UHGV virus genome: UHGV-0455966
Length of the DNA: 41,149 nucleotides
Source of the DNA: a virus
Strand: one strand, 5' to 3'
The translations under genes were made by a program, and so were the position numbers. The notes under the pieces were generated by a model, which was not told where the DNA came from, did not search any database, and was given only the letters and a program-made list of their open reading frames with translations. Within the stretch, counting starts at the first letter, position 1. Each line of letters starts with the position of its first letter. This document shows, in pieces, positions 2,609-41,149 of this stretch.

Positions 2609-3447
2609 GGATTCACCTCCTGCGGCGGTTCTGGTAGCGGCATCCAGAACAAGGCGTTCCCTAACCACGATAAAGTGCCGTCGCTCAACTCCACGTATTC
2701 CCCTTGTACCTGTCCTGCCATATACTCGCCGTGCTTTGAATAAATTAAAATCCAATCATCTTGAGGGGGCATTCGCTCACTACAGCTTATCCAACCATCC
2801 GGAGTTACCGGAGAGTTGCCTGCCAGTCTACGCAAAACAGCCTTAACAGCCTCAATACGGTCATCATCGTAACTTTCCGCCGTATCTATGCGGTCGAGCA
2901 TGATGATTGCGTTATCAATATCAGGATTGCCGGTCCACTCATTACCGCGATTGGATTCGGCAGCCTGGTTGCCGCGTACTGGTTGATTGTCGGCTTTACC
3001 CAGTCTGTCGTCGCTGCATGAATGCCCTTCCAGCCAGGCCAATGCTTGTCGCATGAAATACGCAATATGTTTGCCGTGGTAATCGTCTTCATCGATGTGA
3101 AAAGCGATACTACGAATGTATTCAATTGCGTTTTCAATGGCCTCTAACGCTATCGGCGCTGGCGGAGTGGTATATAGTTTTCGACATTTGTATATCCAAC
3201 CGGCATGGTCAGGCGTGTCTGTAAAACGCAAATCGTCTTCGTAGCACTCACGACTACGTTCTTTCCATTCCGTCCACGGAACACCGCTATTCCAGGTGGG
3301 GCGAGTGCAGGACTGATACAGAACAGGCTCTGCTTCCAGTGATGCCAGCGCAATTCGTGCCAGTTCCATTTGTTCGCCACGGGTAAGCCCGTTATCAAGC
3401 GGATTTTTAATGAATAATTCGATACGTTCTTTGGTAATAGTGGTCAT
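2605..3447 (-). CDS. hypothetical protein with DUF551-like C-terminal domain
   Basis: C-terminal ...LSWLGNALFWMPLPEPP matches the WMPLPxPP signature recalled for DUF551 prophage proteins. Confidence 0.55.
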   Translation of the reverse strand: MTTITKERIELFIKNPLDNGLTRGEQMELARIALASLEAEPVLYQSCTRPTWNSGVPWTEWKERSRECYEDDLRFTDTPDHAGWIYKCRKLYTTPPAPIALEAIENAIEYIRSIAFHIDEDDYHGKHIAYFMRQALAWLEGHSCSDDRLGKADNQPVRGNQAAESNRGNEWTGNPDIDNAIIMLDRIDTAESYDDDRIEAVKAVLRRLAGNSPVTPDGWISCSERMPPQDDWILIYSKHGEYMAGQVQGEYVELSDGTLSWLGNALFWMPLPEPPQEVNP

Positions 3448-3654: not shown

Positions 3655-4287
3655 TCACTCTCCTTTGATGCGAATGCCAGGGGCGCGTGGCACATTAACT
3701 TCCACGATGCGCACAGTTGGTTTGTACATCTCAATCGCAGTCAGCCAGTCAGCGCCAGTCATGCGCTTTTCTGCATCGCCATTAGTCCACTTAACCGGTA
3801 CACCAATAGCCTTCATCGCGATTTCTATTTCCCCGGCAATGGCGCTTTTTCCGCAACCAGTAAAACCAGATACAACGACCAGAACTTCACCTTTGGCTGG
3901 TTTTATTTCCCGCTCCTCCAGTTCAGCAATGCGCTTACTCCCATCCGAGATAACACCTTCGTAATACTCACGCTGCTCGTTGAGTTTTGATTTTGTCTCC
4001 TCAAGCTCAACTCTCAGCTTCCCAACCGTAAGCGCAATATCCTCGTTCTCCTGGTCGCGGGATTTGATGTATTGCTGGTTCCTTTCCCGTTCATCCAGTA
4101 GTGCCAGCACGGTTTCTGGTCCGGCCAGAAATTTGAAGGCGTTGAGCGCATCAATATCCACACCGTAATCTTTAAGTTCCTGTTCACTTAACAAATCATC
4201 ATCAGCTGGCAACATTAACAGGCGTTCCATTGCTGGAATTGCACGTTCCGCCGCCTCACGCAGTGCCTGGTAATTAATTTCGCTCAC
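3655..4287 (-). CDS. hypothetical coiled-coil protein with C-terminal P-loop motif
   Basis: Walker-A-like GFTGCGKS near C-terminus; N-terminal charged helical region. Confidence 0.5.
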   Translation of the reverse strand: MSEINYQALREAAERAIPAMERLLMLPADDDLLSEQELKDYGVDIDALNAFKFLAGPETVLALLDERERNQQYIKSRDQENEDIALTVGKLRVELEETKSKLNEQREYYEGVISDGSKRIAELEEREIKPAKGEVLVVVSGFTGCGKSAIAGEIEIAMKAIGVPVKWTNGDAEKRMTGADWLTAIEMYKPTVRIVEVNVPRAPGIRIKGE

Positions 4288-5045
4288 TGGTTGCCTCCTT
4301 TGCGAAGCTGGGCAGCAAAGTCAACTAACCACTCAGTCATTTCAACCTTCCCTACCAGGTCTGAACCAGGGTGCATACAGCAATCACTCTGCGCCGCTTT
4401 GAAATCCTTATACTCATATTCTTGGGCCACCAGATTTTTTGCAGCTTCTATAGCAGCATCCACGCCCCGCGCCCGCACTTCAGCCAGGAAGACGTCAGTG
4501 GACGGAGTTTGCACCGTGATGCTGTCACGCAGGATGAAGTACGCGTTAAGCATTCCGGTTTCAGGCATCTCCTCTGCATTAAATGCATCGATTGCAGCAT
4601 CCATTACAGGGCCAAGTGGTTGAGGGTGTGCGCTACGGATAGCATCACATTCAGCTATGATAGATTTGATTTTATCTACCAGGTCAGATGGTGACACGTC
4701 GTCAGCTGACCGATTAAACCCAAGTGCCTCCCGAACTGCGCACGACTCCGACATTCTTTGGTCTGCTTGCCCTGCTGACATTGAGTAGCGAGCATTCTCA
4801 GCAGCCAGAGCCGAAAACTTCTCGTGTGCCAACTTAACAGCCGCATCAGCCTGCTTAATTGACTCAATCGCTCTCTGGTGGTCTTCGGCCAGCGCATTAG
4901 CACGCACCAGTTGCACTTCCAGTTGCGTTGCCAAATCGCTGAGCAGCTTTGCCACATTACGCATATCAACGGCACCACATTCTGCTTTCAGTTCCGAAGC
5001 CATCTCATGCCCGGCGGCAACGAACCCTTTGATATTACTTTCCAT
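4284..5045 (-). CDS. hypothetical protein
   Basis: 253-aa ORF, same strand and coupled to neighbours. Confidence 0.5.
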   Translation of the reverse strand: MESNIKGFVAAGHEMASELKAECGAVDMRNVAKLLSDLATQLEVQLVRANALAEDHQRAIESIKQADAAVKLAHEKFSALAAENARYSMSAGQADQRMSESCAVREALGFNRSADDVSPSDLVDKIKSIIAECDAIRSAHPQPLGPVMDAAIDAFNAEEMPETGMLNAYFILRDSITVQTPSTDVFLAEVRARGVDAAIEAAKNLVAQEYEYKDFKAAQSDCCMHPGSDLVGKVEMTEWLVDFAAQLRKGGNQ

Positions 5046-7917: not shown

Positions 7918-8502
7918 ATGAAAAGTATCCAGGACGTCCGCAGGCAAAATCTCAACGACTTGATCGACCGTGAATTCAATGGTGTTCAGACGCGGATGGC
8001 AGAAAAACTTGGAACTCAGGCAAATCTGGTAAACCGCTGGGCTCTTGGCAAGAAGGTTATCGGCGACCAGGTTGCACGAAAAATTGAAGCTGCCGCCAAT
8101 AAACCCCGTAACTGGCTTGATATTGATCGCTCGCTTTCTCAGGAGGGTTTTCAGCCTGTCGGCCCGAGTGATATAGGTCAGCTGGCGGCTCACAACCTGG
8201 AACGCTGGATGAGCGAAAGCCGCGACCTTTCAACGCAGGGAAAACTACACCGCGCATCCGGCGTCGCCCAGGTGACAATCAGCCGCCTGTTAAACAATGA
8301 GGTCAGCGTTTCCATTTCCACCCTGGAGAATGTTGCATCCGCATTCGGGCGTCACGGCTATGAATTACTGATTCACCCGCACGACCCTGCGACCATCAAC
8401 TATGATCGCTCGCGCTACGCATTGTTACCCGAAACCGAGAAAGCAAAGATCGAAAGTTACATTGAATTTGTCATCAACCAGAACGAAAAAAACAAACAAT
8501 AA
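7918..8502 (+). CDS. prophage repressor with two HTH domains, no S24 peptidase motif
   Basis: HTH 1 QTRMAEKLGTQANLVNRWALGKK, HTH 2 LHRASGVAQVTISRLLNNEVSVSISTLENVASAFG; no GDSM/Ser-Lys dyad region; divergent from Cro-like gene. Confidence 0.7.
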   Translation: MKSIQDVRRQNLNDLIDREFNGVQTRMAEKLGTQANLVNRWALGKKVIGDQVARKIEAAANKPRNWLDIDRSLSQEGFQPVGPSDIGQLAAHNLERWMSESRDLSTQGKLHRASGVAQVTISRLLNNEVSVSISTLENVASAFGRHGYELLIHPHDPATINYDRSRYALLPETEKAKIESYIEFVINQNEKNKQ

Positions 8503-30981: not shown

Positions 30982-33452
30982 CAGAATCCCCCAACAGTAA
31001 GACGAGGAATAACGGCAAGAACAGACAGCGGCAACGGGTCAAGCTGACGGATTCTTACACGTCCGTTTTTGCCCCAGTTACTGTCCAGTTTCACTTCTAC
31101 TTTTCCGGTAGCGTCATCAACAGGATCATCGTAGAACTCGAATTCACGCTGTGGATATTCGTACCATTTACCGCCGGGCGTAGTCGCCCAGATGCCGCGG
31201 CTGGCATTCACAACCAGAGTAACGGATGGGATCACCTGTTTTTTGTCCAGCAGCGTTTCCTGTCCGTTAATGTTGATATCCAGTGTTTCGAATTCAGCAG
31301 TTATTGGCAGGCCGATGTGCACTACAGCCCCCGGTGATTCCAGCGTGACGGCACCTCCGGAAACTACTTTCTGTGGTTCCACGTTCGCATCAGAGAGGAT
31401 GTTTACGGTCTGACCTTCAAGATGAGACAAGCCGCCAAATGCCCGGCGCGCCATCTGCCAGTTCGTGGTGGCCACATTCCTGAGGGATGGCGGGACGTTC
31501 CTGTTAGCACGAACCACTACAGCGGTGTTGCTGGTTACAGAAATAATGTCGCAACGTAATTCTTTTGACACTTCATCGCCAGTATCAGGATCAGTTCCGG
31601 TATAAGGGAACTGTAGTTGCGCACCGACATCACTACTGGTGAAGTACGCACCACCAGAAATACTGATTGTATATTCCGCGCGGTAATCCCATTCGCCAGA
31701 ACCACCAGTGATGGTCATCGTTCTGTCAGACGTATTTCTTCCATCATAGCTAAGGCCAGAATCAACAAAGAAAGCATCTTCATCGCTGGTAAATAAACGG
31801 CTGGACAGTCGCTCGATGTATCTCACTGTTTGCCCGTTAACGGTTCGGTTAACGACGAAATACACCGCATCTTCATTTCCTTCGCTGATACTGCATGTGC
31901 TTTCATATTTTCCGGTACTGGATTGTGGTGCCCATGCAAAAACCTGCTGATCACGCAAATAGGTCATCACCAGTAATTTACCGTCATCACGAATGCAGAA
32001 GGCGCTGGAGTAAGGGACAATAGAGAAGCACCAGTCAACAATGCTGTGCTTCTGAAAAAGATGATTGGCAAGGATGGTCAGGTCGTTCCCCTGATAGCCG
32101 TCAACATCGAATGAGTAGGCCAGATCACGGACAACACTGCCTTTCTCCTGGACGAACAGAGCAATATTCGCCACGGCAATTGGTGGGACATTGCTCGAAC
32201 CATTTGATCCCTGAGAGCTGAATGCAAATGATGATGGAGTTAATACTTTGTTCTGGTCGCCGGTGATGACGTACTCACCTCCGGAAGTCAGTGCCACCAG
32301 CGAACCGACATCAATCAGGTGGCGGATCTCATTAACCTGACGCCCGGCATAGGTGTAGATAATTCTGTCGTCATCCTGCGTAGGATTGCTTTTGCCAAAA
32401 TCCTTATAATCCCCAGTACGGCTGGCCCAGATAGTCTGAGGGAACGCTGTCGATGCGGCGAAGTAAAGACGTTGTTGATAATAAACAACCGTGCCAGGAT
32501 AACCGTTAACACTGTTCCAGGCATATTTAGCCCATTTATAGCTGGCATTATCCTCGCCAACGACCTGCGAAGGGATATAGGAAATCACCTCAGCAGTTGC
32601 AGTAGTGCCATTTACAGCAGTTATACGGGCAATGCCAAAACCACTGTGCAGATACTCCCACTCAATGCCAGTATCATCATCACCGGATCCGCCCCAGCCA
32701 TCCCATGATGTGCCTTCTGTATGCGAAGGGCGCAAAGTGCCTGTTTTGCCTGCTGTAACGGCGCGATAGTAGTTACTGTCTGCACGGCGAATATCGCCAA
32801 TCGACGTACTCTTACTGGTTTCCCATACCGGCACAGAATCCACTGCAGGCTGTTCCAGATAGAACAATTTGCCTACCTGCTCCGCGCCAAAAATAGAGGC
32901 GCTTGCCGTTAACGTAATTGTCCCGGTGCTGGCGCTGGCATAAACCGTCACTGACTCATCAATATTGATATCTTCAAATGGCCCGTTCTTCGTTACCACA
33001 TCAACCAGTTGCCAGTTGTCATGCGCATAGCGGCGCAGCTCTTTCGGCGGGTATGCCGGGTGAACCAGCGTAAGCACGTCGGCGCTTTGCGTGAATTTAA
33101 TTCGGAACAGATCGGCTTCAGTATATGGCGTGGCAATTTCATAAATAACATTGCTGCTGTTCAGCACCAACGCACCATCTTTGATAACGCGCATGTACTG
33201 GTGTCCGAACTCCAGAGCATAAGTCTGAACCGTCGAGAATTGGAACGGGATCAGGCGGCATTTCCGATTTGGGTATTTGGCGGCACCGACAAAACGCGTA
33301 CCAGGTCGATTCTCAACGCCGCCATACTGCCGCACGATAAAGTTATCGCACTTGCGCAATGCTACCTGGTACTTCGCCATGTCAATACGCCCGTACAACG
33401 ACGGTCCAATCTCACCACCGGCAAAGCTGGGCTGGATCCAACTGATAGCCAT
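30981..33452 (-). CDS. tail tubular protein B (T7 gp12-like)
   Basis: 823 aa, size and position after tubular A; N-terminal MAISWIQPSFAGGEIGPSL resembles T7 gp12 start MALISQSIKNLKGGISQQPD. Confidence 0.65.
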   Translation of the reverse strand: MAISWIQPSFAGGEIGPSLYGRIDMAKYQVALRKCDNFIVRQYGGVENRPGTRFVGAAKYPNRKCRLIPFQFSTVQTYALEFGHQYMRVIKDGALVLNSSNVIYEIATPYTEADLFRIKFTQSADVLTLVHPAYPPKELRRYAHDNWQLVDVVTKNGPFEDINIDESVTVYASASTGTITLTASASIFGAEQVGKLFYLEQPAVDSVPVWETSKSTSIGDIRRADSNYYRAVTAGKTGTLRPSHTEGTSWDGWGGSGDDDTGIEWEYLHSGFGIARITAVNGTTATAEVISYIPSQVVGEDNASYKWAKYAWNSVNGYPGTVVYYQQRLYFAASTAFPQTIWASRTGDYKDFGKSNPTQDDDRIIYTYAGRQVNEIRHLIDVGSLVALTSGGEYVITGDQNKVLTPSSFAFSSQGSNGSSNVPPIAVANIALFVQEKGSVVRDLAYSFDVDGYQGNDLTILANHLFQKHSIVDWCFSIVPYSSAFCIRDDGKLLVMTYLRDQQVFAWAPQSSTGKYESTCSISEGNEDAVYFVVNRTVNGQTVRYIERLSSRLFTSDEDAFFVDSGLSYDGRNTSDRTMTITGGSGEWDYRAEYTISISGGAYFTSSDVGAQLQFPYTGTDPDTGDEVSKELRCDIISVTSNTAVVVRANRNVPPSLRNVATTNWQMARRAFGGLSHLEGQTVNILSDANVEPQKVVSGGAVTLESPGAVVHIGLPITAEFETLDININGQETLLDKKQVIPSVTLVVNASRGIWATTPGGKWYEYPQREFEFYDDPVDDATGKVEVKLDSNWGKNGRVRIRQLDPLPLSVLAVIPRLTVGGF

Positions 33453-36968: not shown

Positions 36969-37261
36969 TCCTGTTCACTGGCCTCTTTGGCCATCTTCAA
37001 ATACTGTTCAGGGCAATGCGCCATAACGCGCTGAAACAGTTCCAGCGCCAGATTGCGTTGCCCCTCATTAAATGCCATTGCCATAGCGTCCATCGGTGAG
37101 ATAGCGGAAAACACCCGGCCTTTCTCCAGCACAGACCAGACAACGCGACGCCCCTGTTCACTGCTCATGACAAAGCGAATGTCATCAATTTCACGCTGTG
37201 CCATGTCACGTTGCTTACTGGCGTTTTCTTCTTTCAGTTGATCATCTTCGTAATCTGTCAT
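36965..37261 (-). CDS. hypothetical small protein
   Basis: 98-aa ORF coupled between portal and scaffold genes. Confidence 0.4.
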   Translation of the reverse strand: MTDYEDDQLKEENASKQRDMAQREIDDIRFVMSSEQGRRVVWSVLEKGRVFSAISPMDAMAMAFNEGQRNLALELFQRVMAHCPEQYLKMAKEASEQE

Positions 37262-38937
37262 TGTGATTGCCCACCCTGACCACTAACTGCATTCGCCATA
37301 GCTGACAAAACACTCGGATCCGAAGTTTTAGCTTCGCTTAGCGTCTTGGCACCCTGTGCCGCCGCCATCCCCATCGCCATCATTTGTTGCTGCTGTTGTT
37401 GCTGTGCCCGTTGCTGGCGAGCCTGCTCAACCTGTTCCTGCGGAACAATGACGGTTGGAGACACTCCGGACATATCAGCGAATGCATCGATCGCCTGATC
37501 AACGTTGAGTTTGTCGAGAGCTTCTGGTTTCGCTTGCGCAAGTTGACCAATGAAGTTAACCGTGGACGCCAGACTGGACAGGCCGATAGACTTCTGCGCC
37601 TGAGCCATGACAGAAATGTATTCGACCTTCAGGGGCATACCTTCCATCGCGTCAGGCGGTGGCGGCAGCATGTTTTTACGCACCATCATCGAGAAAGCGC
37701 GGTCAATGAGAGGATTAAGACATTCGTCGTTCAGACGCTCCAGAACCGGCCCCAACATCAGAAGTTTTTCTTCTTTCATTTCGATCACCGCTTCAACAGG
37801 CATCGAGCGGGTATTGATGTTCTGCAACATCATGAACAGATCGACAAAGTAGGCGCTGTTAATGATTTGGCGGGTGTCCTGAATGTCTGCTACCAGATCT
37901 GCTGTACTGGGGTTAACCAGATAAGCAGGCCTGAAACCATCCTGACCAGTAATCTGATCGATATACGTGATGTCGCCAGGAAGAAGGGAGGCGCGCTGAT
38001 TCTTGAGGGAAGTCGGAGCAACCATCGGCGGATTGGTGGCTTTATCAATCAACTGCGACTTGCGCTTCTGGAGAAGCTGCAATGCCTTAACAGGTCCAAG
38101 CGCCAGCATACCCGGGCATGATGATCCATAAACATCTTCGCCGTTAACTTCCCAGCGCGGAGCCATAATTGGAAACTCATCGAATCCGGACTCACGCAAC
38201 AACTTGTCGTTATCGCCACCAACCTCGTAATAAACCGATTTGAATGGCTTGTTCTTGCTATCCAGCTTCGATGTATCGCGGTCAATGTTCGGGTAAACCG
38301 AATGCATCACTTCAATCCACTTCTCGTAGGTGCCGCTTTCCCACATGCTTTTTACGGATTCGCTGACGTTATTTAGCCCGAACTCCCGAACAAGCTGACG
38401 AACAGTCATAGAGAACTTGCGAAAACAGGTGTCCACACTGCCACGAGGTGAGTTAGCCAGGTAGTAACTGCCTATCGGGAATGGCATTGTGCGAATGATG
38501 TCCTCGTCATCCTCCAGCACCGCCATTGCACCAGTGCTGTATGTGCCGAGGCTTCCGTATAACTGCGGAAGAGACTGGTAGAGATTCGACTTATTGAACA
38601 TATCGTTCATGCGGTTCTGCACCGCCTCAAGCCACAACTTAACAGGGCCATAATCCATCATTTCAGGATCTGGCGTAGCCAGGCGAAACCACGGACGCGC
38701 GGGGCTTGTGATGCCTGACATCATGCCGCTGGCGAGAGTGCGCGCCGCCATAGTCCCGGTCGAATCAATAATGCGTGTATTGCGTCGATCGTTACGGTTG
38801 ACCTCAGAAGTAAGAAAGCGGGAACCACGCGGGTTGATGTAATCACTCAACTCGCGCCAGTGCGGCTCGAACGACTGACGCTCGCTTTCAAGTTGTGCGA
38901 ACTGTTTGTTCAATCGCTCTTTAGTTGTTTCCGCCAT
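37258..38937 (-). CDS. portal protein (T7 gp8-like head-tail connector)
   Basis: 559 aa; Gln/Ala/Met-rich C-terminal tail QQRAQQQQQQQMMAMGMAAAQGAK like T7 gp8 C-terminus; first large gene after terL. Confidence 0.7.
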   Translation of the reverse strand: MAETTKERLNKQFAQLESERQSFEPHWRELSDYINPRGSRFLTSEVNRNDRRNTRIIDSTGTMAARTLASGMMSGITSPARPWFRLATPDPEMMDYGPVKLWLEAVQNRMNDMFNKSNLYQSLPQLYGSLGTYSTGAMAVLEDDEDIIRTMPFPIGSYYLANSPRGSVDTCFRKFSMTVRQLVREFGLNNVSESVKSMWESGTYEKWIEVMHSVYPNIDRDTSKLDSKNKPFKSVYYEVGGDNDKLLRESGFDEFPIMAPRWEVNGEDVYGSSCPGMLALGPVKALQLLQKRKSQLIDKATNPPMVAPTSLKNQRASLLPGDITYIDQITGQDGFRPAYLVNPSTADLVADIQDTRQIINSAYFVDLFMMLQNINTRSMPVEAVIEMKEEKLLMLGPVLERLNDECLNPLIDRAFSMMVRKNMLPPPPDAMEGMPLKVEYISVMAQAQKSIGLSSLASTVNFIGQLAQAKPEALDKLNVDQAIDAFADMSGVSPTVIVPQEQVEQARQQRAQQQQQQQMMAMGMAAAQGAKTLSEAKTSDPSVLSAMANAVSGQGGQSQ

Positions 38938-38951
38938 TTCAATGACTCCGG

Positions 38952-39158
38952 TTACTGACCAAGCAGCGTTTTACCGCTGGTCTTAGCGGTTGATGTGTCG
39001 CCCTGAGAACCGGTAAGCAGCGTAGAACTACGACCAGCAGCAGCGCGACGGCGACGAGTTTCTTCGTCGCGGGCATCAACAACGGCGGCATCCTGCTCCT
39101 GTGGTGCTGCCTGAACTTCTGGTGTTGCAGGCACTGATGGTGAGCTACCCATGCACAT
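38952..39158 (-). CDS. hypothetical small protein upstream of portal
   Basis: GGAG RBS; Ala/Arg-rich 68 aa; overlapping ORF 38939-39178 in another frame judged less likely. Confidence 0.4.
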   Translation of the reverse strand: MCMGSSPSVPATPEVQAAPQEQDAAVVDARDEETRRRRAAAGRSSTLLTGSQGDTSTAKTSGKTLLGQ

Positions 39159-39197
39159 ATCAATGACTCCGTACGCAATTAAATTATTACCAATTTA

Positions 39198-39263
39198 ACC
39201 ACATATGATTTATTTATCGTAGATAGTTGACATTTAACGCACAAATTATTACCTTTCAGGTAA
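39198..39263 (+). promoter_or_regulatory. promoter-like module: AACCACATA box, TTGACA, palindrome TTACC-tttca-GGTAA
   Basis: AACCACATA 39198-39206, TTGACA 39227-39232, palindrome 39249-39263; upstream of structured region and tRNA. Confidence 0.5.
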
Positions 39264-39585
39264 CCAAAGAGTTCATTCCGGTTACTAACCTGACTGGCTT
39301 GTCGTTAAATTGAACAGGTGGAGTGAGCTTTTATTTTGAGCAGTACGGCGTATGGCACATGCGCCGATAGCGGTCTGGATACGTTTAAGGGGCACCCTCC
39401 CTTGCTCGGGCAAACGAACCAGGTAGCCGGAATGTGCAAGTCGAGCGGTTTTATTCCGCGCACGGGGATTCACCATCCCGGCGATTCGGTGTGACGCCTC
39501 GGAAGAGACGAGGGTACAACGATGAGAGCATTTATGGAGCCGCGACAAAGTGTGGTGCCTTAACAGGCTAAGTGCTCTCAGCGTT

Positions 39586-39662
39586 GTGGCATTAGCTCAG
39601 TTGGACAGAGCAACCGCCTTCTAAGCGGTTGGTCGCAGGTTCGAATCCTGCATGCCGCGCCA
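39586..39662 (+). tRNA. tRNA-Arg (anticodon UCU)
   Basis: Hand-folded cloverleaf: acceptor GTGGCAT/ATGCCGC, D-stem GCTC/GAGC, anticodon stem ACCGC/GCGGT with loop CUUCUAA, T-arm GCAGG-TTCGAAT-CCTGC, discriminator G, encoded CCA. Confidence 0.85.
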
Positions 39663-39705
39663 GAATCACGCCTAAGGACCGTGATGCCAGAAGTTCCAGG
39701 GGCTT

Positions 39706-39748
39706 GGCGGTGATGGTTTCCCTTGAAGGACTATCACCGCCCTTTTTA
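39706..39748 (+). terminator. hairpin plus T-run downstream of tRNA
   Basis: GGCGGTGAT ... ATCACCGCC then CTTTTT. Confidence 0.5.
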
Positions 39749-39825
39749 CAGCAGGACGCCATTGCGATGACTTCATGCTGTAAACCCGTACAGCCACGGA
39801 AGGCATAACTCATTGCTTCCAGTTC

Positions 39826-39849
39826 GCCCGGTTCGCCGGGCATTTTTTT
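39826..39849 (+). terminator. strong intrinsic terminator (UUCG tetraloop)
   Basis: GCCCGG-ttcg-CCGGGC followed by ATTTTTTT. Confidence 0.7.
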
Positions 39850-39865
39850 GCCTGATGACCACAAA

Positions 39866-39883
39866 TTACCTTAAAGGTATAAT
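39866..39883 (+). promoter_or_regulatory. imperfect palindrome TTACC-ttaaa-GGTAT overlapping a perfect TATAAT
   Basis: TATAAT at 39878-39883 ends 1 nt before ATG 39885. Confidence 0.45.
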
Positions 39884-39884
39884 C

Positions 39885-40733
39885 ATGAAAAACTTTAAGG
39901 TAATTAGTATGTTCGAATCGTTCAAAGAGCTGTTTTTATCTACTGCCAATACTGCCGTGCATCGAGCTAAAAACCCTGTGCTAGGTGCTTTTGTTATGTC
40001 CTGGTGCGCCTTCAACTGGAAATCACTTCTTTATCTATTTTTTAGCAAATCAAATATAATAGATAAAATTTCATACATCTCAGATAACAGCACATGGAAA
40101 ACTGTTATGTTTTATCCATGCTTATCTGTAATTACTATCTGCTGCCTATTACCATGGGTAAACAATATCATTAACGTATGGCAAGCAAAGCCTCTTGATA
40201 ATAATGACTCAATCGAAAATCACCGGAAGGCAAGAAAAATACAACGTGAAACACGGCTACAGAGATTGCTGGCTAAAAAAGACATTACTTACGAAAAAGT
40301 AAAAACAGGCGCTGAAAAAAACATTCAAGACATGAAAGAGGAAATAATTCTTTCAAAAGACAGAATGGGACAACTCACATCTGAATTGAAAGAGAGGGAG
40401 ACAGAACTGCGCGCAGCACAAGCTCGTATTTTAGAATTATCTAAGGTTATTCATGAAACAACATCTAAACTAGAAAATCTAGAAAAAGCCCACAAAAATT
40501 TAAAAAACGAATATGAGTCCTATAAGAAAAACATTCCTTTGGCAACAAATAATACAATTGCTAATGGGTTTGTAGGTCTAAAATCATTACAAGACCTTAA
40601 TGAGTCCGTAAAGAAACTTGGCGTTACTGGAATTAACAATCCAGAAATCAGTACATTATTGAATAATCCTCTAGTAAATATAAATGGTGGTTTAAATTCC
40701 ACCCATCAAAGAAAATCAAAAACACAAAAGTAA
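39885..40733 (+). CDS. AT-rich accessory protein: two N-terminal TM helices + long coiled coil, unknown function
   Basis: ATG 39885 with AAGG RBS (track start 39813 lies inside a terminator); opposite strand to flanking late genes; low GC. Confidence 0.6.
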   Translation: MKNFKVISMFESFKELFLSTANTAVHRAKNPVLGAFVMSWCAFNWKSLLYLFFSKSNIIDKISYISDNSTWKTVMFYPCLSVITICCLLPWVNNIINVWQAKPLDNNDSIENHRKARKIQRETRLQRLLAKKDITYEKVKTGAEKNIQDMKEEIILSKDRMGQLTSELKERETELRAAQARILELSKVIHETTSKLENLEKAHKNLKNEYESYKKNIPLATNNTIANGFVGLKSLQDLNESVKKLGVTGINNPEISTLLNNPLVNINGGLNSTHQRKSKTQK

Positions 40734-40736
40734 AAA

Positions 40737-41149
40737 TCATTCAAATGGGTCATAGTCTGTTATAGCCCTGCCCTGCTGCTGCCGTGGGTCATTAGTTTTC
40801 TTGGCTACCGGGAACGCAAACGTCAGCAGTAGCGCATCGCCTTTACCCGGCGAACGCCCAAGCCGCTCCTTGATATCTTCCTTCGGTTCGATAACGATTT
40901 TACCGTCCACTCGAACTTTGTACTCTGCCGCCGACAGGTCGTCTGCTGTTTCCTGGTCATCCAGCATGCCGCCCAGCCTCAGCCATGTCTTGCATGAATT
41001 GAACATCTCCCCACGCTTGTTGAGCATCTGCGGGTCAGTAGACGCGCCACCGAACGGAACAAGTTGCCATGTACGACCCCATCCGTCACCGATTGACTTC
41101 AGACCGGTTCCGTAACCGAAGTCGATGAACACCGCGTCAGCCTGATACT
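40737..41149 (-). CDS. terL: terminase large subunit, C-terminal part (continues from window start)
   Basis: Frame continuous with 1-1057: position 1 (C) plus 41149-41148 (AG) form codon CAG joining ...RIADFED to YQADAVFIDFGYGTG... Confidence 0.8.
   Translation of the reverse strand, partial: YQADAVFIDFGYGTGLKSIGDGWGRTWQLVPFGGASTDPQMLNKRGEMFNSCKTWLRLGGMLDDQETADDLSAAEYKVRVDGKIVIEPKEDIKERLGRSPGKGDALLLTFAFPVAKKTNDPRQQQGRAITDYDPFE

What the first reader, a model, noticed from the sequence alone, without database searches (positions are those of the whole stretch)
39198..40733. Plus-strand insert between terL and portal: tRNA-Arg(UCU) and an AT-rich membrane/coiled-coil gene
Within the minus-strand late operon, a plus-strand unit carries a promoter-like module, about 320 bp of GC-rich structured non-coding sequence, a canonical tRNA-Arg (UCU, rare AGA codon), two terminators, and a 283-aa AT-rich protein with two TM helices and a long coiled coil. 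A perfect TATAAT ends 1 nt before its ATG and overlaps a palindrome half-site, so promoter and RBS assignment is ambiguous (possibly leaderless). This is a moron-like cargo gene of unknown function, possibly exclusion or defence, and an unusual interruption of the terL-to-portal link.
Basis: partly seen in the sequence, partly recalled or inferred. Interest (0 to 1): 0.5.

Follow-up and report, generated by a model that had tools for sequence, protein, structure and literature searches.

The report
Unannotated phage leader RNA with tRNA-Arg
The plus-strand unit is not a one-off insert but a repressor-controlled early RNA unit shared by epsilon15/phiV10-like phages. Its "structured spacer" is a strongly covarying, pseudoknotted RNA with no Rfam match that is also found in P1, in Stx phages and other lambdoid prophages, and in about a third of complete E. 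coli genomes. The tRNA-Arg and the membrane/coiled-coil gene are ordinary passengers of that unit.

Summary
The features are real: tRNA-Arg(UCU) at 39586-39662, two intrinsic terminators, a GC-rich non-coding stretch and an AT-rich ORF. Three points need correcting.

1. The unit is conserved across the genus Uetakevirus (99% identical in phiV10 over 39150-39849). Only the gene after terminator T2 is swapped between phages.
2. The ORF starts at ATG 39909 (274 aa, SD AAGG). The TATAAT is its -10 box and overlaps a phage operator, TACCTNNNAGGTA (14 sites in the window against 0.6 expected). The gene is not leaderless and is probably repressed in the lysogen.
3. The "spacer" holds a ~175-nt RNA (39343-39516). 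It has 79 distinct sequences, 97% of cells paired, and 13 pairs with compensatory changes (0 of 500 shuffles reach this). It has two candidate pseudoknots, one supported by covariation, and no Rfam match.

The same RNA begins the early-left (PL) transcript of lambdoid prophages in which I found no N gene. It lies next to tRNA-Ile in P1. It occurs in 1840 of 5426 complete E. coli genomes and was unannotated in every hit I inspected.

My best guess is that it is a cis-acting leader that carries RNA polymerase through T1/T2, functionally like HK022 put, although put itself shows no detectable homology. This is unproven: phage LLS has the terminators but not the core. The cargo protein (phrog_4780) remains of unknown function.

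The parts
39227..39264 (+). Promoter/operator of the RNA unit: -35 TTGACA (39227-39232), weak -10 TACCTT (39250-39255), operator palindrome TACCTTTCAGGTA (39250-39262).
   Evidence: Sequence. The palindrome has 14 matches in the window against 0.59 expected. The homologous site in epsilon15 (TTGACA ... TTACCTTTTAGGTAA) is annotated 'repressor; lysogeny'. The consensus scan does not call this promoter.
39343..39516 (+). Core structured RNA of a family without an Rfam match. P1 39346-52/39360-66. P2 39374-78/39419-23 with a variable distal stem. P3 about 39445-48/39456-59 (read in this sequence only). P4 39465-68/39476-79. P5 39497-501/39509-13. Candidate pseudoknots: GCACA 39355-59 with UGUGC 39433-37, and CACC 39471-74 with GGUG 39488-91.
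   Evidence: CM R1 hit of 144.8 bits. Covariation on A2 and A5. No Rfam match at E<=1. Homologues in 86 phage records, 1840 E. coli genomes, 24 species genomes and at least 120 IMG/VR contigs.
39517..39586 (+). Long-stem module CAACGAUGAGAGCA ... UGCUCUCAGCGUUG enclosing a variable insert. It recurs, sometimes in tandem, in related leaders.
   Evidence: Alignments and downstream sequences. Compensatory variants are visible by eye (GAGAGCA/UGCUCUC versus AAGAGCA/UGCUCUU versus GAUGA/UCAUC). No formal count was made.
39586..39662 (+). tRNA-Arg (anticodon UCU), CCA encoded. It occupies the slot where relatives have a variable, partly tRNA-like domain closed by GUUGUGGUGA...UCACCACAAC.
   Evidence: A tRNA-Arg(TCT) follows the core in 29 of 51 Uetakevirus-like loci.
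39665..39747 (+). Conserved hairpin AUCACGCCUAAGGACCGUGAU (39665-39685), then terminator T1 (39706-39741 plus U tract). The layout resembles an sRNA 3' module.
   Evidence: terminator. (conserved in Uetakevirus and lambdoid leaders, with T1 stems of differing sequence). In the Stenotrophomonas phage the homologous module gives a sub-threshold RprA match. The window itself gives none.
39748..39849 (+). Conserved hairpin ACAGCAGGACGCC...CAUGCUGU (39748-39781), then terminator T2 (39826-39841 plus U7).
39855..39901 (+). The cargo gene's own promoter: -35 ATGACC (39855-60), operator TACCTTAAAGGTA (39867-79), -10 TATAAT (39878-83), SD AAGG (39897-39900).
   Evidence: and the sequence. A similar operator-plus-promoter cassette precedes the cargo gene in EC.W1-9 and in Kluyvera locus L024.
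39909..40733 (+). Cargo gene of 274 aa, family phrog_4780. The N-terminal ~160 aa are conserved and hold one strong and one weaker hydrophobic helix. A long coiled coil follows, and the C-terminus is hypervariable.
   Evidence: The same slot is used in E. coli Uetakevirus prophages, and the gene also occurs in a different Klebsiella prophage.
38952..39158 (-). gp3-like 68-aa gene upstream of portal (37258-38937), forming the left border of the unit. The terL 3' end at 40737 forms the right border.

Best explanation
SHOWN. Bases 39227-39849 form a genus-wide transcription unit preceded by a phage operator (early expression is inferred). It makes mostly RNA, not protein.
- It opens with a ~175-nt RNA that has five helices (four of them with covariation support) and two candidate pseudoknots. 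This RNA belongs to a large family with no Rfam match.
- The same RNA starts 25-90 nt after the PL-type promoter in lambdoid prophages where no N gene was found. In P1-like phages it sits 9-15 nt after tRNA-Ile.
- Next come a long-stem module, tRNA-Arg(UCU), a hairpin with terminator T1, and a hairpin with terminator T2.
- Then comes a slot for interchangeable accessory genes. Here the slot holds a phrog_4780 gene (274 aa from ATG 39909) with its own operator-overlapped promoter.

INFERRED MECHANISM.
- After prophage induction or infection, the repressor leaves the operator and the leader RNA is transcribed.
- The leader folds and acts in cis on the transcribing polymerase. This is processive antitermination, functionally like HK022 put.
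- Modified polymerase carries transcription through T1 and T2 into the accessory gene(s).
- RNase P and other tRNA-processing enzymes cut out tRNA-Arg, which supplies the AGA/AGG decoding that the phage uses heavily.
- The cargo protein is probably an early, inner-membrane-anchored accessory factor with a cytoplasmic coiled coil. It may act in exclusion, or for or against host defence. Its function is not established.
For: It is a structured RNA read from the + strand:
- 79 distinct sequences, 97.2% of cells paired, 13 pairs and 216 cells with changes on both sides, 0 of 500 shuffles as good. Slid controls give 1-7 pairs. The hand alignment gives the same picture.
- Many conserved G-U pairs (for example 9:19 in 77 of 79 sequences and 32:88 in 78 of 79). 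These would be A-C mismatches on the other strand.

Its position is that of a leader:
- In mEp460 the order is cI stop, cI terminator, OL/PL, then the core about 40 nt after the predicted start, then two large hairpin-plus-U structures, then the first ORF.
- Of 156 loci, 78 have the repressor-upstream / yfdP-downstream layout, 51 the Uetakevirus layout and 15-20 the P1 layout. Several of the loci left unclassified also show a repressor-like ORF, a promoter and then the core.

Read-through is needed:
- In phiV10, SPN1S, a Klebsiella phage and loci L022, L026 and L027 the accessory ORF starts 10-20 nt after T2, with an SD and no room for a promoter.
- In the lambdoids the whole early-left operon lies beyond the terminators.
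- The first ORFs there are YfdP/YfdQ/YfdR-like, not N. Casjens and colleagues report no N homologue in the related phage LLS and suggest an RNA mechanism (PMC12315714).

Operator control: 14 palindromes against 0.59 expected, sitting at the repressor/replication, Bro-N and other promoter regions. The site is annotated as a repressor site in epsilon15.

tRNA. Codon use. Start codon.
Against: - Phage LLS has the same repressor - gap - yfdP layout, the long-stem module and T1/T2, but no core. The core cannot be the only route to read-through.
- epsilon15 has lost most of the core and the tRNA, yet keeps a cargo gene directly after T2.
- In P1 the core is about 2.3 kb from the ban promoter, and I saw no strong terminator before ban.
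- HK022 put gives no nhmmer or covariance-model match. The put analogy therefore rests on position only.
- My own terminator count downstream of the core was no higher than on the antisense strand. That statistic does not help.
- No transcript data were available.
- The first pseudoknot is invariant, so covariation cannot test it.
Confidence: 0.42

Rival explanations
1. The core is a stand-alone, trans-acting stable RNA. It might be a decoy or regulator of a conserved host machine, or an anti-defence RNA. Neighbouring tRNA or tRNA-like domains would release it from the primary transcript ("tRNA punctuation"). T1 and T2 would simply end this RNA gene, and downstream genes would be expressed by leakage or from their own promoters.
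For: - The core abuts a tRNA in two independent settings. tRNA-Arg starts at the last base of the long stem in Uetakeviruses. tRNA-Ile ends 9-15 nt before the core in all P1-like loci.
- Relatives carry a tRNA-like domain in the same slot.
- The core is modular. It occurs alone in P1, and it is absent from LLS, which keeps the other modules.
- Long invariant single-stranded blocks are kept from Enterobacteriaceae to a Stenotrophomonas phage, which suggests a conserved binding partner.
- T1 varies in sequence between leaders while keeping a stem (read by eye).
- In the window the cargo gene has its own promoter.
Against: - Most cargo genes in the genus have no promoter of their own and directly follow T2.
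- In lambdoids the early-left genes lie behind the same terminators, so some read-through mechanism must exist.
- There is no evidence for a trans target.
Confidence: 0.3
2. The core is a riboswitch-like sensor of a metabolite, ion or tRNA. It would decide whether transcription stops at T1/T2.
For: Invariant junctions set between covarying stems, and a pseudoknotted fold, are typical of aptamers. The RNA sits in a 5' leader with terminators downstream.
Against: - The terminators lie 190-310 nt after the core, and in this window a whole tRNA lies between. No alternative pairing links the core to T1.
- In P1 no terminator follows.
- No Rfam riboswitch matches.
Confidence: 0.08
3. The first reader's view, combined with the epsilon15 annotation. 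The unit would be a moron insert (tRNA plus an exclusion or defence gene). The structured stretch would be only a spacer, or an RNase III processing site of the late (minus-strand) mRNA.
For: - The epsilon15 record annotates an 'RNaseIII; mRNA processing' site on the late strand in this intergenic region.
- The minus strand also folds better than shuffled sequence (z = -2.23).
- The cargo gene is AT-rich and variable.
Against: - The same RNA occurs, always co-oriented with local transcription, in lambdoid and P1 settings that have no late operon on the opposite strand.
- Conserved G-U pairs fit only the + strand.
- The unit is genus-wide, and both promoters carry the repressor operator.
Confidence: 0.07
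4. The conserved element acts as DNA, for example as a single-strand initiation signal, a packaging site or a recombination site.
For: Long invariant blocks could be protein-binding DNA. In P1 the element lies next to the helicase gene ban.
Against: Compensatory changes with G-U pairs and pseudoknot covariation point to folded RNA. The element is consistently co-oriented with promoters and terminators.
Confidence: 0.03

Closest known systems
HK022 put RNAs (putL/putR), protein-independent processive antiterminators
   Same: Lies just downstream of the PL-type promoter of a lambdoid phage in which I found no N gene. It is a folded nascent RNA with terminators downstream. P1 has the same stem bases as put stem I (CGGCG...CGUCG), a resemblance seen by eye only.
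   Different: - put is about 70 nt with two stem-loops. This core is about 175 nt with five helices (four with covariation support) and two candidate pseudoknots.
- No nhmmer or covariance-model similarity was found.
- I saw no second copy right after cro in mEp460.
- Activity on RNA polymerase has not been tested.
Lambda nutL / N leader
   Same: First element of the early-left transcript. The long-stem module contains a boxA-like UGCUCUUUC, and many relatives have a short hairpin (GCGCAGGCUGAUGCGC) a few bases later.
   Different: No N-like ORF follows. The boxA-like bases covary as one strand of a stem. In the window the tRNA replaces the boxB-like hairpin.
GOLLD and ROOL, large ornate phage-associated RNAs often found next to tRNA genes (from my own knowledge and Rfam)
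   Same: Carried by prophages, close to tRNA genes, highly structured, function unknown.
   Different: Neither family appeared in the Rfam scans of the core regions. This RNA is several times smaller. It occurs in Enterobacteriaceae and Xanthomonadales phages rather than Firmicutes and similar hosts.
Phage-borne tRNA-Arg(UCU), for example argN/argO of Stx phages (from my own knowledge)
   Same: A rare-codon tRNA carried by a temperate coliphage whose genes are rich in AGA/AGG.
   Different: Here the tRNA is embedded in a conserved leader RNA, in a slot that holds a tRNA-like domain in relatives.
RprA sRNA (Rfam RF00034)
   Same: In related leaders the hairpin-plus-T1 module matches the RprA 3' part, including AAUUGCUGUGUGUAGUCUU (50.2 bits).
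   Different: The match is below Rfam's gathering score of 70. The window lineage has a different sequence at that stretch and gives no RprA match. L021 and L035 also give none.
Phage accessory ('moron') and anti-defence slots, for example Tad2
   Same: One position carries unrelated small genes in different phages, among them a Tad2-like protein in a Klebsiella phage.
   Different: The promoter carries the repressor operator, so the gene is probably not expressed from the prophage. phrog_4780 has no known function.

Membership tests
tRNA-Arg (UCU) | Cloverleaf that scores as a tRNA, with anticodon UCU | tested here: met
   ARAGORN. Rfam RF00005 at 69.4 bits against a gathering score of 29.
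tRNA-Arg (UCU) | Intact acceptor stem and ArgRS identity elements (A20, C35) | tested here: met
   Read from the sequence. Seven acceptor pairs, one of them U2-G71 (U-A in phiV10). The D-loop AGUUGGACA contains A20. CCA is encoded. Charging was not tested.
HK022 put antiterminator RNA | Sequence and structure similarity to putL/putR | tested here: not met
   nhmmer with all filters off finds only a chance 16-mer inside nun. CM R1 gives no hit in the HK022 loci at E<=10.
HK022 put antiterminator RNA | Located just downstream of an early promoter and upstream of terminators | tested here: met
   mEp460, the window, L064 and the Stenotrophomonas-type loci. This is not the case in P1.
HK022 put antiterminator RNA | Makes RNA polymerase terminator-resistant without protein factors, and depends on the beta' zinc-binding domain | not testable with these tools
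   Needs in vitro transcription or reporter assays, and rpoC mutants.
Any Rfam 15 family | Covariance-model match to the core | tested here: not met
   E-value scans of the window 38900-40000 and of six other loci give no match over the core.
Riboswitch | Aptamer coupled to an overlapping expression platform | tested here: not met
   T1 lies about 190 nt after the core, with a tRNA in between. I found no competing pairing.
Riboswitch | Ligand binding | not testable with these tools
   Needs biochemistry.
phrog_4780 (cargo protein) | Full-length profile match | tested here: met
   E 7.5e-122, residues 9-281 against profile positions 1-268 of 275. 187 homologues, all named hypothetical.
Known anti-phage defence proteins (PADLOC) | Significant match outside the coiled-coil segment | tested here: not met
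   Only weak hits (E >= 7.6e-5) to the coiled-coil parts of LmuB, JetC and DruC.
Moron (prophage-expressed cargo) | Own promoter and terminator, foreign base composition, variable presence | tested here: met
   Own promoter. 34% GC. Variable slot content. There is no terminator after the ORF; the terL stop codon lies 3 nt away.
Moron (prophage-expressed cargo) | Expressed in the lysogen | tested here: inconclusive
   The repressor-type operator overlaps the -10 box, which argues against it. No expression data were available.
   Pfam, PHROGs and the homologue search show none. The tape-measure hits are to coiled-coil segments only.

The most novel reading that the evidence does not exclude
The 175-nt core would be a new class of autonomous phage RNA that binds a conserved host machine, most plausibly RNA polymerase. 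It would be a second family of protein-independent antiterminator RNAs, structurally unrelated to put. That could explain how lambdoid prophages without N, some Stx2-converting phages among them, express their early-left operons. The whole unit would be a polycistronic non-coding RNA operon (core RNA, tRNA or tRNA-like domain, sRNA-like T1 module).
Probability: 0.3. Interest if true: 0.85.

Novelty: new variant of a known kind. Interest (0 to 1): 0.68.

Why it matters
- A strongly covarying RNA has gone unannotated in every hit I inspected. It is present in about a third of complete E. coli genomes, in P1, in Stx2a- and Stx2c-converting phages, and in Salmonella, Klebsiella, Enterobacter and Stenotrophomonas phages.
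- It sits at the very start of the early-left transcript of lambdoid phages that lack an identifiable N protein. How early antitermination works in those phages is open: Casjens and colleagues only guess at a put-like RNA (PMC12315714).
- If the leader controls read-through, it governs early gene expression, including int/xis and accessory or anti-defence genes, in medically relevant prophages. It would also give a second structural solution for RNA-mediated control of RNA polymerase.
- If it acts in trans instead, it is a new abundant phage non-coding RNA.
- Either way the question is directly testable with simple reporters.
- The tRNA-Arg and the cargo gene are routine by comparison.

Tried and rejected
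- Rfam scans at permissive E-values over the window and six other loci gave nothing over the core.
- Full-text search for the invariant blocks, as DNA and as RNA, found 0 papers. Topic searches found no description of this RNA. The P1 genome paper could not be read.
- put homology was rejected by nhmmer and by the covariance model.
- N-dependent nut site: the first downstream ORFs are YfdP/YfdQ/YfdR-like, with no N-like protein.
- I expected phage LLS to carry the core. It does not, which weakened the simple antiterminator story.
- My terminator-enrichment statistic did not discriminate (sense 1.95 against antisense 2.15 per locus), so I dropped it.
- The RprA-like reading of the T1 module holds only below threshold, and only for the Stenotrophomonas-type leader. 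It does not hold for L021, L035 or the window.
- Cargo protein: the Pfam and PADLOC hits are coiled-coil noise. The AlphaFold model has pTM 0.27, so I ran no fold search.
- "Leaderless" start at 39885: rejected.
- A minus-strand coding reading of the spacer (87-aa ORF at 39285-39548; mEp460_037 is annotated over the element): rejected, because the substitutions follow base pairing and the blocks are kept across contexts.
Full report
**What the window is.** Megablast of 39150-40800 shows that the first 700 bases (39150-39849) are 98-99% identical in phiV10, TL-2011b, the O157 typing phages 9 and 10, ZX5, HEMP4 and others. All of these are Uetakeviruses (the epsilon15 group). In their annotation the region lies between a 68-aa gene plus portal on one side and terL on the other, on the opposite strand. 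The "insert" is therefore a fixed feature of the genus. Only the gene after the second terminator differs:
- a 123-aa Phage_gp49_66 protein in phiV10 and typing phage 9;
- a Tad2-like protein in a Klebsiella phage;
- a DUF551 protein in Tyrion;
- a phrog_4780 protein in EC.W1-9 and in this window.

**Checking the listed features.**
- The tRNA is real. ARAGORN finds tRNA-Arg(TCT) at 39586-39662, and Rfam scores it at 69.4 bits.
- Both terminators are found by the scan (39706-39741 and 39826-39841).
- In 40 window ORFs, AGA is used at 8.2 and AGG at 5.6 per 1000 codons. That is several times the E. coli averages I recall, so the tRNA makes sense for the phage.
TACCTNNNAGGTA, allowing one mismatch, occurs 14 times against 0.59 expected.
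- These sites lie in front of the repressor/replication genes, a Bro-N gene, the integrase region and others. The homologous site in epsilon15 is annotated as the lysogeny-repressor site.
- One operator overlaps the weak -10 box of the promoter that starts the RNA unit (TTGACA at 39227). A second overlaps the TATAAT in front of the ORF.

**The ORF.**
- The PHROG profile starts at residue 9 of the long form.
- The homologues begin M[LF]ES.KE, apart from the closest relative P0003. The EC.W1-9 copy begins MFEQFKE.
- AAGG lies 8 nt before ATG 39909.
- With the -10 box at 39878-83, ATG 39885 lies at or before the likely transcription start, so the mRNA is not leaderless. The protein has 274 aa.
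- Its first ~160 residues are conserved, with one strongly and one weakly hydrophobic helix. A long helix follows, and the C-terminus is hypervariable.
- All 187 homologues are unnamed. Most sit in this same slot, and some sit in an unrelated Klebsiella prophage.
- The defence and Pfam hits are coiled-coil noise. The function remains unknown.
- The operator suggests early-lytic expression rather than expression from the prophage.

**The non-coding stretch is the real finding.** A sensitive blastn with 39280-39590 found it well beyond Uetakeviruses:
- lambdoid phages: cdtI, mEp460, 2H10, Ayreon, and Stx2c- and Stx2a-converting phages;
- P1, P7, D6, SJ46 and RCS47;
- Klebsiella, Enterobacter and Salmonella phages;
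- a Stenotrophomonas phage.

It is present in 1840 of 5426 complete E. coli genomes, and none of the 40 listed hits carried an RNA annotation. An invariant 19-mer found it in 24 species genomes. A different pattern found it in at least 120 IMG/VR contigs.

Alignments show long invariant blocks separated by stems that change in a compensatory way. I counted a hand-drawn structure of five helices (P3 left out of the counts) and two pseudoknots.
- On 26 hand-chosen sequences: 95.6% of cells paired, and 12 pairs with changes on both sides against 6.9 +/- 1.2 in shuffles.
- On 79 distinct sequences aligned to a covariance model: 97.2% paired, 13 pairs and 216 cells with changes on both sides, 0 of 500 shuffles as good, and slid controls of 1-7 pairs. 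This alignment was fitted to the model, so it leans towards the structure. The hand alignment agrees.
- Conserved G-U pairs fix the strand as +.
- The second pseudoknot (CACC/GGUG) covaries (C-G in 59 sequences, A-U in 17). The first (GCACA/UGUGC) is invariant and therefore untested.
- Nothing in Rfam 15 matches the core, here or in six other loci. Text searches for its invariant blocks found no paper.

**Context.** Of 156 loci, 78 have a cI-type repressor upstream on the same strand and/or yfdP-like genes downstream. A further 51 have the Uetakevirus layout and 15-20 the P1 layout. The remaining loci include further repressor - promoter - core cases.

In mEp460 the order is cI stop, cI terminator, OL/PL, then the core about 40 nt after the predicted transcription start. 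Next come more RNA modules, two large hairpin-plus-U structures, and only then the first ORF. RefSeq leaves a 700-bp unannotated gap at this place in an O104:H4 prophage.

The modules after the core are shared between lambdoid leaders and this window:
- a long stem;
- a domain closed by GUUGUGGUGA...UCACCACAAC, which in the window, phiV10, SPN1S and Klebsiella phages is replaced by tRNA-Arg (the tRNA starts at the conserved GUGG);
- a hairpin AAUCACG...CGUGAU;
- T1;
- another hairpin;
- T2.

The Uetakevirus unit is thus homologous to the early-left leader of lambdoid phages in which I found no N gene. In P1-like phages the core stands alone, 9-15 nt after tRNA-Ile and before ban.

**Mechanism.** Some read-through of T1/T2 must occur.
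- In most Uetakeviruses the accessory ORF begins 10-20 nt after T2, with an SD and no room for a promoter.
- In the lambdoids the whole early-left operon lies behind the same structures.
- No N-like gene follows. Casjens and colleagues note that the related phage LLS has no N homologue and may use an RNA mechanism like put.

I therefore favour a cis-acting leader that makes RNA polymerase terminator-resistant. This is an inference from position, and there are real objections.
- put shows no sequence or structure similarity.
- LLS has the long stem and T1/T2 but not the core.
- epsilon15 has deleted most of the core.
- In P1 the core lies far from the promoter.
- My terminator-enrichment statistic was uninformative.

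The main rival is that the core is a free, trans-acting RNA cut out by the flanking tRNA or tRNA-like domains. The tight tRNA adjacency in two independent settings, and the modular presence and absence of the core, fit that view. A riboswitch, a late-mRNA RNase III site (the epsilon15 annotation) and a DNA-level element are less likely, for the reasons given under the rival explanations.

**Comparison and novelty.**
- The tRNA and the cargo slot are known kinds of feature.
- The core RNA is a family with no match in Rfam and no description that I could find.
- By position it works most like put or nut leaders, but it fails the membership test for put.
- It also recalls GOLLD and ROOL, which are phage-borne, lie next to tRNA genes and are of unknown function. 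Neither family appeared in the Rfam scans.

I score the original observation as ordinary, and the RNA family it contains as of high interest.

Noticed in passing
window 5456, 5518, 7464, 7832, 7849, 8561, 8623, 13848, 18702, 20027, 20152, 21203, 39250, 39867 (13-bp sites): Operator palindrome (T)TACCTNNNAGGTA(A): 14 sites against 0.59 expected. The sites cluster around the repressor gene (7918-8502) and its divergent replication genes. Others lie before a Bro-N gene and next to the integrase gene. This amounts to a genome-wide repressor regulon.
   Followed up: partly
L006 (epsilon15 NC_004775) 2548-2640: epsilon15 itself carries a deletion. P1 and the start of P2 of the core are fused to the 3' half of T1, so most of the core and the tRNA are missing. 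The cargo gene directly after T2 remains.
   Followed up: partly
L015 (Stenotrophomonas phage BUCT708) 1631-1750; also LLS, L016, L035, L021, L033: The hairpin-plus-T1 module gives a sub-threshold RprA match (50.2 bits against a gathering score of 70). The match includes AAUUGCUGUGUGUAGUCUU, identical to the RprA consensus. This may be a phage RprA mimic. The window lineage has a different sequence there.
   Followed up: partly
L015, L078, L112, L134, L155, downstream of T1: Four to six repeats of a hairpin CC.GG-GAAAGAC-CC.GG (similar to P5 of the core) and of CCUGACCAGC. They look like repeated binding sites for an unknown factor.
   Followed up: no
L169 (phage LLS PQ299149) 31731-32358, minus strand: Same repressor - gap - yfdP layout, with the long-stem module, T1 and the long T2 hairpin, but no core RNA. 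A different 5' module (CCACCGCGCCUGAUGUGGUUAAAAGC) and an extra terminator-like hairpin take its place.
   Followed up: partly
L026 (Klebsiella pneumoniae ATCC 13883) and L009/L011 inserts: The variable domains of related leaders contain T-arm-like hairpins (for example CUGGUUCGACUCCAG) and acceptor-like closing stems, but ARAGORN calls no tRNA. They look like decayed or tRNA-like domains in the slot where the window has tRNA-Arg.
   Followed up: no
L064 (IMG/VR contig), hits 4804-4960 and 3997-4155: Two copies of the core about 650 nt apart on one strand of a single contig. An AT-rich opposite-strand gene cassette lies directly after a core copy in this contig, and the same sequence follows the core in L037.
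   Followed up: no
L001 3717-4088, L010 2511-3032: The cargo slot in phiV10 and typing phage 9 holds a Phage_gp49_66 protein. In a Klebsiella phage it holds a Tad2-like (anti-Thoeris) protein. The two share phrog_9467, which suggests the slot often carries anti-defence genes.
   Followed up: partly
L007 (Tyrion) 3208-3272; L003 (mEp460) 206-394: Rfam matches above the gathering score to int-alpA RNA in the Tyrion cargo region, and to C4 antisense RNA and isrK within the mEp460 Rha/antirepressor region.
   Followed up: no
window 39587 / 39657: The window's tRNA-Arg has a U2-G71 wobble in the acceptor stem, where phiV10 has U2-A71.
   Followed up: no
window 40733-40737: The cargo ORF and terL converge with only 3 nt between their stop codons and no terminator between them. 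Plus-strand transcripts would run antisense into terL.
   Followed up: no
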